This document shows, piece after piece, positions 1-774 of a stretch of 41,455 nucleotides of DNA (positions are counted from its first letter, which is position 1; the number at the start of each line of letters is the position of its first letter). Under the pieces are notes generated by a model. That model was not told where the DNA came from and searched no databases. It saw only the letters and a list, made by a program, of their open reading frames with translations. A program made the position numbers and the translations under genes. The DNA is from a virus. Taxonomy: Duplodnaviria; Heunggongvirae; Uroviricota; Caudoviricetes. The stretch lies in IMG/VR virus record IMGVR_UViG_2585427970_000004, one strand, 5' to 3'.

Positions 1-774
1 ATGGATATTACTGAGTTTCCTTCTGGAGTAATTGAACACCTTGGCTGGTATGTATACCGATTGATTGATCCTAGGGATGGAAGCACCTTCTATGTAGGGA
101 AAGGCAAAGGTAACCGCGTATTTGCCCATATGCGCGGTGAAGTGGCAGCGGCTGATGATGACGAGTTACTGAGCAACAAGCTAAAGCAAATCAGAGAAAT
201 AAGATTAGCGGGACTTGAAGTTATCCATGTCATCCATCGACATGGAATGACTGATGAAAAGACGGCGTACGAAGTTGAAGCAGCACTTATTGATGCCTAC
301 CCTGGGTTAACGAATATCATGAATGGTGCTGGCAGCAATGAATTCGGCGCCGCGCATGTCAAAGAGTTGATAGCAACATATCAACCCGAAACCATAACAT
401 TTCATCATAAAGCATTAATGATTTCCGTTAACAGAAGTGCAAAGGATTCAGAGCTTTATGATGCGGTTCGATTTAGCTGGCGCATTAATGTCTCTCGCGC
501 CAGCCAAGCAGAAGTCATTCTTGCTACTGTAAGGGGGATCGTTCGAGGGGTTTTCATTGCTGATAAATGGCTCAAATCAACACGTGAAAATTTCCCTACG
601 ATGAAATACTGGGACGAGGATCCGGACTTTGAGGCAACACAAAGTTCTCGCTATGGTTTTGAAGGTCGAGAAGCCCCACCTGAAATAGCAAATCTTTATC
701 TTGGAAAAAAAATACCAGATGAATTAAGAAAAAAAGGAGCTATGTCCCCGGTCCGTTACTCACCTAATTTTTGA
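1..774 (+). CDS. GIY-YIG-like nuclease domain protein, free-standing cargo gene at the prophage tail-fibre end
   Basis: ATG at 1; N-terminal motif [29 protein letters not shown] resembles the GIY...YIG/R core of UvrC/Slx1-type nucleases; C-terminal ~170 aa unassigned; convergent with the invertase pseudogene. Confidence 0.55.

What the first reader, a model, noticed from the sequence alone, without database searches (positions are those of the whole stretch)
1..774. Free-standing GIY-YIG-like nuclease gene at the tail-fibre/invertase end of the prophage
The 257-aa ORF begins with a GIY-YIG-like core (WYVYRL…[14 protein letters not shown]) and has an unassigned C-terminal region. It sits beyond the invertase at the distal end of the tail-fibre module, a position where e14-type prophages carry restriction-type cargo. 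It could be a defence nuclease or a selfish homing-type endonuclease.
Basis: partly seen in the sequence, partly recalled or inferred. Interest (0 to 1): 0.5.

Follow-up and report, generated by a model that had tools for sequence, protein, structure and literature searches.

The report
Known anti-T4 restriction nuclease (CMoRE/PD-T4-3)
The gene is an intact copy of CMoRE (PD-T4-3), an already characterised prophage-borne enzyme that protects E. coli by cutting the hydroxymethyl-cytosine DNA of T4-like phages, so the finding is real but ordinary.

Summary
Window 1-774 (+) is a real, intact 257-aa gene with the quoted motifs. It is not an unknown nuclease. It matches the PADLOC model for defence system PD-T4-3 end to end (E 2e-140). 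It is 254/257 identical to the E. coli O157:H7 protein whose crystal structures are 9U75/9U8D. That protein was renamed CMoRE (Liu et al., Nat Commun 2026, PMC12923530). [quoted passage not shown] Its N-terminal GIY-YIG domain cuts DNA that its C-terminal domain recognises as carrying 5hmC or glucosyl-5hmC, and it blocks T2, T4 and T6. Every residue the paper names is conserved here: Y17/Y19/Y31, acidic lid D52-E55, R80, V92/L96, Y127. The gene sits just beyond a dead pin invertase in an e14-related, thrW-integrated prophage. That is the slot where e14 of K-12 carries mcrA, another type IV enzyme. In relatives the second thrW att copy lies 1.5-6.4 kb further out, so there the gene is prophage cargo. 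The window starts at the ATG, so this prophage's own end and the promoter are off-window. The homing-endonuclease alternative is not supported. Verdict: already known, low interest.

The parts
1..774 (+). CMoRE / PD-T4-3 gene: 257 codons plus stop. [quoted passage not shown]
   Evidence: ORF. PADLOC PD-T4-3 residues 1-256 of a 256-position model, E 2.2e-140. phrog_5356 full length, E 2.9e-143. PDB 9u75_A E 1e-172 with 254/257 identical; 9u7u_A E 1.1e-150 with 85.2% identity. RefSeq calls the same gene 'LEM-3-like GIY-YIG domain-containing protein'.
40..330 (+). [quoted passage not shown] Contains the GIYxY-YIG tyrosines Y17, Y19, Y31 (nt 49-93) and R39.
   Evidence: Pfam PF22945 residues 28-110 and PF01541 residues 16-100. 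Residue check against both crystallised proteins. Mutagenesis of these tyrosines abolishes defence and nuclease activity in the O157:H7 protein.
154..165 (+). Four consecutive acidic residues D52-D53-D54-E55 of the inserted autoinhibitory 'lid' loop.
   Evidence: DDDE here and in the APEC O1 protein; DDDD in the O157:H7 protein. The 4A mutant of this loop cuts unmodified DNA and is toxic. Assigning the paper's 'four consecutive negatively-charged residues' to 52-55 is my inference, because this is the only such run in the loop region.
358..771 (+). C-terminal modification-sensing domain, about residues 120-257, including Y127 (nt 379-381). The boundary is approximate.
   Evidence: No Pfam or NCBIfam hit. 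In the crystal complexes 5hm-dCTP binds this domain, and the 5-hydroxyl hydrogen-bonds to the main-chain O of Y127. Y127 is conserved here.
795..834 (.). Hairpin AACCGCAGCACG...CGTGCTACGGTT in the 60-nt spacer between the convergent CMoRE and pin genes, followed by TTTATTTAT. A candidate bidirectional terminator (inferred).
   Evidence: MFE -20.2 kcal/mol on the + strand (z -2.5) and -27.2 on the - strand (z -4.4). Coordinates. The simple terminator scan did not call it, because the loop is longer than 8 nt.
835..1314 (-). Context: 3' part of the pin (serine invertase) pseudogene. The 5' part is at 2628-2702. It also carries an in-frame TAG at codon 150.
   Evidence: Pfam Resolvase E 1.1e-21. 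Collinear with intact pinE in relatives. The reconstruction gives MLIGYVRVS...PEQWA*AGRLI....
1315..2624 (-). Context: 1310-bp IS3-family element (IS629/IS1203-like) inserted in pin. The 3-bp target duplication TCC is at 1312-1314 and 2625-2627.
   Evidence: orfA 2244-2570 and orfB 1357-2247. Breakpoints against uninterrupted relatives. A 96%-identical copy in L003 is annotated 'IS3 family transposase'. The names IS629/IS1203 come from my own knowledge and from the feature names under hit H27.
40001..40056 (.). Context: thrW-proximal att repeat, overlapping the 3' end of tRNA-Thr(CGT) at 40012-40087 (- strand). It marks the integrase end of the prophage.
   Evidence: ARAGORN. A 47-56-nt copy of this stretch lies upstream of the CMoRE gene in 9 of the 11 related loci.

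Best explanation
The gene encodes CMoRE (formerly PD-T4-3), a one-protein type IV restriction endonuclease carried as cargo by a temperate phage.

Mechanism, taken from the 98.8%-identical O157:H7 protein:
- The protein forms a tetramer (a dimer of dimers).
- The C-terminal domain binds cytosines carrying 5-hydroxymethyl or glucosyl-hydroxymethyl groups. Two such sites about 21 bp apart are needed.
- The N-terminal GIY-YIG domain, with Mg2+ or Mn2+, cuts between them (C N11/N9 G, 2-nt 3' overhangs).
- An acidic loop lies over the active site and keeps unmodified host DNA out. Only tightly bound modified DNA displaces it.

The result is direct, non-abortive destruction of incoming T2/T4/T6-type genomes. 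The lysogen's own DNA and the prophage DNA are spared because they are unmodified.

Shown here: sequence identity, conservation of every residue named in the paper, single-gene organisation, prophage linkage. Inferred: that this allele is expressed and active in its own host.
For: - Full-length PADLOC PD-T4-3 match, E 2.2e-140.
- 254/257 identity to PDB 9U75/9U8D and 85.2% to 9U7U/9U7Z.
- The three differences are E55 (D in O157, E in APEC O1, so charge is kept), N197 (H in O157, N in APEC O1) and Q169 (K in both). None is a residue named as functional in the paper.
- Y17, Y19, Y31, R39, D52-E55, R80, V92, L96 and Y127 are all conserved.
- Biochemistry, structures and phage assays of the O157:H7 and APEC O1 proteins: PMC12923530.
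- Independent evidence for the family: a native-host deletion in NILS69 sensitises it to Tevenvirinae phages. PD-T4-3Capno degrades T4 DNA but not unmodified T4-GT7 DNA.
- The exact protein sequence is listed in 5608 blocks of the assembly index. The gene is present at >=95% nt identity in 838 of 5426 complete E. coli genomes. This argues for a maintained, functional gene.
- Single-gene system: the upstream neighbour differs between loci (AraC, RelA_SpoT, kinase, DUF6650, FlxA, BCCT) and the downstream neighbour is pin or its remnant.
- Cargo signature: GC 43.5% against 55.7% for the adjacent structural genes.
Against: - Nothing contradicts the assignment.
- The promoter is outside the window, so expression in this strain is not shown.
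- The simple sigma-70 scan found no site immediately upstream of the ATG in a relative. The nearest hit was about 620 nt upstream.
- The prophage shows decay next door, with pin hit by an IS and by a nonsense codon. Silencing cannot be excluded.
- The effect of Q169 in place of K169 in the sensing domain is untested.
- The APEC O1 allele gave much weaker protection from its native promoter, so strength of defence varies between alleles and promoters.
Confidence: 0.93

Rival explanations
1. A selfish free-standing GIY-YIG homing endonuclease (I-TevI / Seg-like). It would cut a specific target in related phage genomes that lack it and so spread itself.
For: It has a GIY-YIG domain. There is a weak hit to a PHROG annotated 'homing endonuclease' (phrog_314, E 0.0022, residues 17-149). 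Homologues at 38-45% identity in jumbo phages are annotated 'putative homing nuclease' by their depositors.
Against: No NUMOD, IENR1 or HTH DNA-binding module. The C-terminal domain is a modified-base sensor in the crystal complexes. Cleavage of T4 DNA shows no strict sequence requirement beyond two modified cytosines. The gene protects cells from heterologous phages.
Confidence: 0.02
2. An intact but silent passenger. The prophage is decaying and the gene is no longer expressed or useful in this strain.
For: The adjacent pin is a pseudogene, with an IS629-like insertion and a TAG at codon 150. The promoter is not in the window. In NILS69, six of the eight predicted defence systems tested showed no detectable activity in the native host.
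Against: The ORF is full length and identical at protein level to copies in thousands of assemblies. The 205 nt upstream are conserved in 10 of 11 relatives. The O157:H7 gene is active from its native promoter. PD-T4-3 was one of only two systems active in the native host NILS69.
Confidence: 0.05
3. The same enzyme with a broader or shifted modification range. It would also restrict phages with other hypermodified bases, for example Mu-type carbamoylmethyl-adenine. This does not exclude the main explanation.
For: PD-T4-3Capno, 48% identical to PD-T4-3, degrades Mu DNA at high concentration and defends against Mu when induced. 5hmC binds at an open edge of the sensing domain rather than in a pocket. 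This allele has Q169 where both crystallised proteins have K.
Against: The O157:H7 enzyme did not bind or cut unmodified or 5mC DNA, and protection was reported only for T2, T4 and T6 among the phages tested. Mosigvirus was not restricted by the NILS69 allele.
Confidence: 0.15
4. A GIY-YIG type II restriction enzyme (Eco29kI / Hpy188I-like) that needs a partner methyltransferase.
For: Some type II enzymes use the GIY-YIG fold (own knowledge).
Against: No methyltransferase is adjacent here or in any of the 15 related CMoRE loci examined. Unmodified DNA is not cut by the near-identical protein.
Confidence: 0.01

Closest known systems
CMoRE (PD-T4-3) of E. coli O157:H7, PDB 9U75 / 9U8D (Liu et al. 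2026, PMC12923530)
   Same: 254/257 residues, same length, both domains, and every residue named as functional in the paper. The genomic neighbourhood is also the same: in an O157:H7 genome the order is AraC - CMoRE - pinE - tail fibre.
   Different: E55 for D, Q169 for K, N197 for H. Here pin is split by an IS, and the element is a near-complete thrW prophage rather than the truncated O157 remnant.
CMoRE of E. coli APEC O1, PDB 9U7U / 9U7Z
   Same: 85.2% identity, same architecture and the same tetramer. It shares E55 and N197 with the window allele.
   Different: 38 substitutions, mostly in the C-terminal domain. It gave weaker defence from its native promoter.
EcoKMcrA of cryptic prophage e14 (E. 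coli K-12)
   Same: It occupies the same slot, immediately beyond pinE at the att-distal end of an e14-family tail-fibre module. It has the same functional class, type IV modification-dependent restriction.
   Different: RefSeq annotates a different gene and product there. That McrA is an HNH enzyme is my own knowledge. Window 1-833 has no DNA similarity to the e14 region that includes mcrA. No protein-level comparison was run. mcrA is co-directional with pinE, whereas CMoRE is convergent with pin.
PD-T4-3Capno (Capnocytophaga; Rodriguez-Rodriguez et al. 2025, PMC12366544)
   Same: Same family, modification-dependent, cuts T4 DNA but not T4-GT7 DNA.
   Different: Only 48% identical to the E. 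coli PD-T4-3. It also acts on Mu DNA at high dose.
PvuRts1I / AbaSI family of 5hmC/5ghmC-dependent enzymes (own knowledge, not tested here)
   Same: Same substrate class. A very similar cleavage geometry, about 11-13/9-10 nt from the modified C between two modified sites, with 2-nt 3' overhangs. Compare C N11/N9 G for CMoRE.
   Different: An unrelated nuclease fold with an SRA-like sensor. CMoRE uses GIY-YIG plus a sensing domain with no detectable homologues.
GIY-YIG homing endonucleases (I-TevI, Seg proteins)
   Same: The catalytic fold.
   Different: They have modular sequence-specific DNA-binding domains and a homing life-style. Neither is found here.

Membership tests
CMoRE / PD-T4-3 (type I architecture) | Full-length similarity to the PD-T4-3 profile and to the crystallised proteins | tested here: met
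   PADLOC PDLC04031 residues 1-256 of 256 model positions, E 2.2e-140. 9u75 at 98.8% and 9u7u at 85.2% identity over 257 aa.
CMoRE / PD-T4-3 (type I architecture) | 'GIYxY-YIG' motif: three tyrosines Y17, Y19, Y31 | tested here: met
   W16-Y17-V18-Y19 and F30-Y31-V32-G33 are present. Motif definition from PMC12923530.
CMoRE / PD-T4-3 (type I architecture) | Conserved catalytic Arg and Glu of the GIY-YIG core | tested here: met
   R39 is identical in all three proteins. E91, E93 and N105 lie in a stretch (residues 86-119) with no substitution against either crystallised protein. The paper's text does not number the catalytic Arg and Glu, so assigning them to R39 and E91/E93 is an inference.
CMoRE / PD-T4-3 (type I architecture) | Inserted negatively charged autoinhibitory loop between helices alpha2 and alpha3 | tested here: met
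   A49-A-A-D-D-D-E55 is present. DDDE is as in APEC O1. Loop function.
CMoRE / PD-T4-3 (type I architecture) | C-terminal modification-sensing domain (Y127 region) and oligomer interface residues V92/L96 | tested here: met
   Y127, V92, L96 and R80 are conserved. The C-terminal domain aligns end to end with both solved chains.
CMoRE / PD-T4-3 (type I architecture) | Single-component system with no conserved partner gene | tested here: met
   Upstream neighbours vary among the 15 related CMoRE loci examined. The downstream neighbour is pin or a pin remnant.
CMoRE / PD-T4-3 (type I architecture) | Cleaves 5hmC/5ghmC DNA and protects against T-even phages | not testable with these tools
   Shown for the O157:H7, APEC O1 and Klebsiella alleles, not for this allele.
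GIY-YIG superfamily (Pfam clan level) | Profile match above the curated cut-off | tested here: met
   PF22945 scores 54 bits against a cut-off of 27. The generic PF01541 is below its cut-off, 13.7 against 22.6.
GIY-YIG homing endonucleases (I-TevI / Seg) | C-terminal sequence-specific DNA-binding modules (NUMOD / IENR1 / HTH), and an intron-borne or intergenic homing context in a phage genome | tested here: not met
   No such Pfam domain at E<=1. Only an N-terminal weak PHROG hit. The gene sits in a cargo slot at the prophage end.
Type II GIY-YIG restriction-modification systems | Adjacent cognate DNA methyltransferase | tested here: not met
   None in the window next to the gene or in the related loci.
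e14-family prophage cargo | Gene lies between the pin/tail-fibre module and the att site of an e14-related prophage | tested here: inconclusive
   Window 834-6302 and 18962-20699 are 88-97% identical to e14. In 9 relatives the distal thrW att copy lies 1.5-6.4 kb beyond the gene. In this window the distal att is off the left edge.

The most novel reading that the evidence does not exclude
The stretch between pin and the distal att site of e14-family prophages (Mu-like tail, lambdoid early genes) may be a two-part defence hotspot.

- Slot 1, abutting pin, would hold interchangeable and unrelated type IV restriction enzymes: HNH McrA in K-12 e14, and GIY-YIG CMoRE here and in about 15% of complete E. 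coli genomes. It can also hold a 215-aa unknown protein or nothing.
- Slot 2, between CMoRE and att, would hold variable candidates: a RelA_SpoT-domain protein, a protein kinase, DUF6650, and AraC-linked genes.

This would be a map of where to look for new defence genes. It would not be a new mechanism. My searches of the held literature did not turn up a description of this hotspot, but that search was shallow (one query).
Probability: 0.5. Interest if true: 0.25.

Novelty: already known. Interest (0 to 1): 0.1.

Why it matters
For annotation, RefSeq names this gene only 'LEM-3-like GIY-YIG domain-containing protein'. It can be named confidently as the type IV restriction endonuclease CMoRE/PD-T4-3. 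That predicts the lysogen resists T2/T4/T6-type phages with hmC or glucosyl-hmC DNA, which is relevant to phage-therapy host-range prediction. Biologically it adds nothing new to the mechanism. The only modest added value is positional: CMoRE replaces mcrA at the same junction of e14-family prophages, next to a further variable cargo slot.

Tried and rejected
- NCBIfam gave no family.
- Generic GIY-YIG Pfam PF01541 was below its cut-off. I relied on the subfamily model and the PDB match instead.
- Megablast against 50,697 phage records found nothing. A tblastn search found only full-length homologues at <=45.5% identity, in jumbo phages.
- I looked for the second att copy inside the window and found none. 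The prophage end therefore had to be mapped in relatives.
- The source genome is not in the complete-E. coli collection. The best 6-kb matches cover 87% at about 95% identity.
- Promoter scans: none in the window, as expected because the gene starts at base 1. In relative L009 the scan called nothing within about 600 nt of the ATG. By eye, TTGTGA-17-TAATAT about 35 nt upstream matches only 8 of 12 positions, so I do not claim it.
- I tested whether the cassette is flanked by direct repeats that might indicate a mobile cassette. I found only 17-19-nt copies of a hairpin-like motif. I judged them terminator-like module-boundary hairpins, not evidence of cassette mobility.
- Structure prediction and the large protein-database searches were not run, because crystal structures of a 98.8%-identical protein exist.
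- Vassallo et al. 2022 (PMC9519451) does not name PD-T4-3 in its main text, only 'a GIY-YIG nuclease'. The link to ECOR68 comes from Liu et al..

Full report
**1. Observation**

Window 1-774 (+) is an ATG-initiated ORF of 257 codons. The window starts exactly at the ATG.

In related loci the reading frame is open for 33 codons upstream, with one alternative in-frame start 17 codons upstream. In the icd-integrated relative L011 an in-frame stop lies 2 codons upstream. The crystallised proteins also begin MDI(T/N)EF. The annotated start is therefore the real one.

The gene has 43.5% G+C, against 55.7% for the neighbouring structural genes. That is a typical cargo ('moron') signature.

**2. Identity**

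- Pfam places residues 28-110 in PF22945 (LEM-3-like GIY-YIG; 54 bits, cut-off 27). The generic PF01541 is sub-threshold.
- NCBIfam has nothing.
- PADLOC matches its PD-T4-3 model over residues 1-256 of 256 model positions, E 2.2e-140.
- PHROGs matches phrog_5356 (unknown function) end to end.
- Against PDB sequences the protein matches 9u75/9u8d (E 1e-172) and 9u7u/9u7z (E 1.1e-150) over its full length.
- A residue count gives 254/257 identical to the O157:H7 chain and 219/257 (85.2%) to the APEC O1 chain.

**3. What is known about that protein**

Liu et al. (Nat Commun 2026, PMC12923530) renamed PD-T4-3 as CMoRE. Their findings:

- Expressed from its native promoter, it lowers T2/T4/T6 plating by about 5 logs. 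It does so without abortive infection.
- The purified enzyme needs Mg2+ or Mn2+. It binds and degrades DNA containing 5hmC or glucosyl-5hmC, but not C or 5mC DNA.
- T4(hmC) stays sensitive and T4(C) escapes.
- Cleavage follows C N11/N9 G with 2-nt 3' overhangs and needs two modified sites.
- The structure is an N-terminal GIY-YIG domain plus a C-terminal domain with no detectable homologues. The C-terminal domain binds 5hm-dCTP, with a hydrogen bond to the main-chain O of Y127.
- Y17, Y19 and Y31 ('GIYxY-YIG') are required.
- A 15-residue acidic loop covers the active site. Replacing its four consecutive acidic residues with alanine (the 4A mutant) gives cutting of ordinary DNA and toxicity.
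- A tetramer (dimer of dimers; V92/L96 interface) is required.

Independent support for the family comes from two other studies. A native-host deletion in E. coli NILS69 sensitises it to Tevenvirinae. A 48%-identical Capnocytophaga homologue cuts T4 DNA but not T4-GT7 DNA.

**4. Does this allele have what it needs?**

Y17, Y19, Y31, R39, H43, D52-D53-D54-E55, R80, V92, L96 and Y127 are all present. There are three differences from the O157:H7 protein:

- E55 for D. This keeps the charge and matches APEC O1.
- N197 for H. This also matches APEC O1.
- Q169 for K. This is unique relative to both proteins, lies in the sensing domain and is untested.

The same protein sequence is indexed in 5608 blocks of the public assembly collection. 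The gene occurs at >=95% nucleotide identity in 838 of 5426 complete E. coli genomes. I conclude with high confidence that this is a functional CMoRE allele. Expression in this strain is inferred, not shown, because the promoter lies outside the window.

**5. Surroundings in the window**

- *Spacer.* Downstream of the stop codon, a 60-nt spacer contains a 12-13-bp-stem hairpin (795-834) followed by a T-run. It folds well on both strands. It is a plausible bidirectional terminator for the convergent CMoRE and pin genes. This is an inference.
- *pin.* pin is on the - strand at 835-1314 and 2628-2702, and it is dead. A 1310-bp IS629/IS1203-like IS3-family element (1315-2624, TCC target duplication) splits it near codon 25. 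Codon 150 is a TAG.
- *Tail and head genes.* Beyond pin lie an invertible tail-fibre / tail-fibre-assembly segment, YmfQ/Mu-gp48, the Mu-like baseplate, tape measure, sheath and tube, the capsid and the terminase.
- *Early region.* This is lambdoid: Q, P, O, an S24 repressor and RecT.
- *Integration site.* An integrase sits at 38834-39997, abutting thrW (tRNA-Thr CGT, 40012-40087). An aldehyde-dehydrogenase-family gene (proA by position) follows.

**6. Is the gene inside the prophage?**

The window holds no second copy of the thrW core, so its own left end cannot be seen.

In nine related loci, a 47-56-nt copy of window 40001/40010-40056 lies 1.5-6.4 kb upstream of the CMoRE gene. Host genes (paoABCD, a LysR gene) or a tandem integrative element lie beyond it.

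The same CMoRE-pin/tail-module block is also found integrated at argW with intS. It is also found next to an icd fragment, the e14 attachment site (L011). The gene therefore moves with the phage and is not conserved host context.

The interval between att and CMoRE is variable across loci. It holds an AraC regulator, a RelA_SpoT-domain protein, a protein kinase, DUF6650, an FlxA-like gene, or BCCT+DUF2254.

The 205 nt immediately upstream of the ATG are conserved in 10 of 11 loci.

**7. Relation to e14**

Window 834-6302 and 18962-20699 are 88-97% identical to K-12 e14. The 'e14-type' label is therefore justified.

The homology starts at window 834, one base before pin's stop codon at 835. Beyond that point e14 carries mcrA, annotated as type IV restriction enzyme EcoKMcrA, followed by icdC. 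This prophage carries CMoRE instead.

I sampled four other pinE-like loci:

- Two had CMoRE, including an O157:H7 genome with AraC - CMoRE - pinE.
- One had a 215-aa hypothetical protein.
- One had nothing before the host gene pphA.

This small sample suggests a cargo hotspot in which unrelated type IV enzymes alternate. One literature query found no description of it. That is weak evidence of novelty.

**8. Rivals**

- *Homing endonuclease.* The evidence is only a weak N-terminal PHROG hit and depositor labels on jumbo-phage homologues. No DNA-binding modules were found, and the published biochemistry contradicts it.
- *Type II restriction-modification.* There is no methyltransferase nearby.
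- *Silent passenger.* This is possible but unlikely, given the conservation and the native-promoter activity of the O157 allele.
- *Broader modification range.* This is compatible with the main explanation and remains open.

**9. Verdict**

But the gene is an already characterised system with solved structures and a worked-out mechanism. Novelty: already known. Interest is low. The residual interest is positional, in the mcrA/CMoRE exchange and the adjacent variable slot.

Noticed in passing
window 835-1314 and 2628-2702 (- strand): The pin invertase is doubly inactivated, by an IS insertion near codon 25 and by an in-frame TAG at codon 150 (PEQWA*AGRLI). The invertible tail-fibre segment should therefore be frozen in one orientation.
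   Followed up: partly
window 1315-2624: A 1310-bp IS3-family element (IS629/IS1203-like) with imperfect terminal inverted repeats that begin TGAACCGCCCCGGG, and a TCC target-site duplication.
   Followed up: partly
window 27135-29117 (- strand): The same prophage carries a second defence candidate, an AbiL-like pair. AbiLi is an AAA ATPase at 27777-29117 (PADLOC E 1.8e-83). AbiLii/RloB is at 27135-27770 (E 9e-21; Pfam RloB 4e-30).
   Followed up: partly
window 33880-34830 (+ strand): A 316-aa DUF6414 protein is encoded just downstream of the S24/HTH repressor gene (32547-33275) and a 139-aa ORF with no family. This is a moron-like position. There is no PADLOC hit.
   Followed up: no
related loci L002-L010, interval between the distal thrW att copy and the CMoRE gene: This interval is a variable cargo slot of 1.5-6.4 kb. 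Across loci it holds an AraC regulator, a 424-aa RelA_SpoT-domain protein, a protein-kinase-domain protein plus a hypothetical, DUF6650, an FlxA-like gene, or BCCT transporter + DUF2254 + a 476-aa unknown. Some of these may be defence genes.
   Followed up: no
L001, L002, L006: about 190-250 nt upstream of the CMoRE start: A tRNA-like fragment (GGCGGAGAGAGGGGGATTTGAACCCCCGGTAGAGTTGCCCC..., Ser-like by eye) sits where homology with the other loci breaks. This hints that the AraC-bearing segment arrived by integration at a tRNA-type site.
   Followed up: no
phage records H41-H57 (e.g. Serratia phage Moabite 6406-7161; Pseudomonas phage OBP 158703-159449): Full-length CMoRE homologues at 38-45% identity are encoded by lytic jumbo phages, where depositors label them 'homing nuclease' or 'endonuclease'. 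They might be used against co-infecting phages with modified DNA. The CMoRE paper's distribution survey covered only prokaryotic genomes.
   Followed up: no
window 834-6302 and 18962-20699 versus K-12 e14 (L012): e14 looks like a deletion derivative of this prophage family. Its chimeric ymfN region matches the window's terminase region at 97% identity. The e14/window homology begins at window 834, one base before pin's stop codon at 835. Beyond that point e14 has mcrA and the window has CMoRE.
   Followed up: partly
L009 9400-9418, 9786-9802, 10810-10831 (the last equals window 810-831): A short hairpin-forming motif (TTCTTGCATAyGACGTGCTACG) recurs at three junctions around the CMoRE cassette. 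It could be a terminator reused at module boundaries, or a recombination 'linker'.
   Followed up: partly
L015 (E. coli OkiPb01695) 3275-3922: In a related prophage, the slot beyond pinE holds a 215-aa hypothetical protein instead of CMoRE or mcrA. It is an untested candidate for another defence gene.
   Followed up: no
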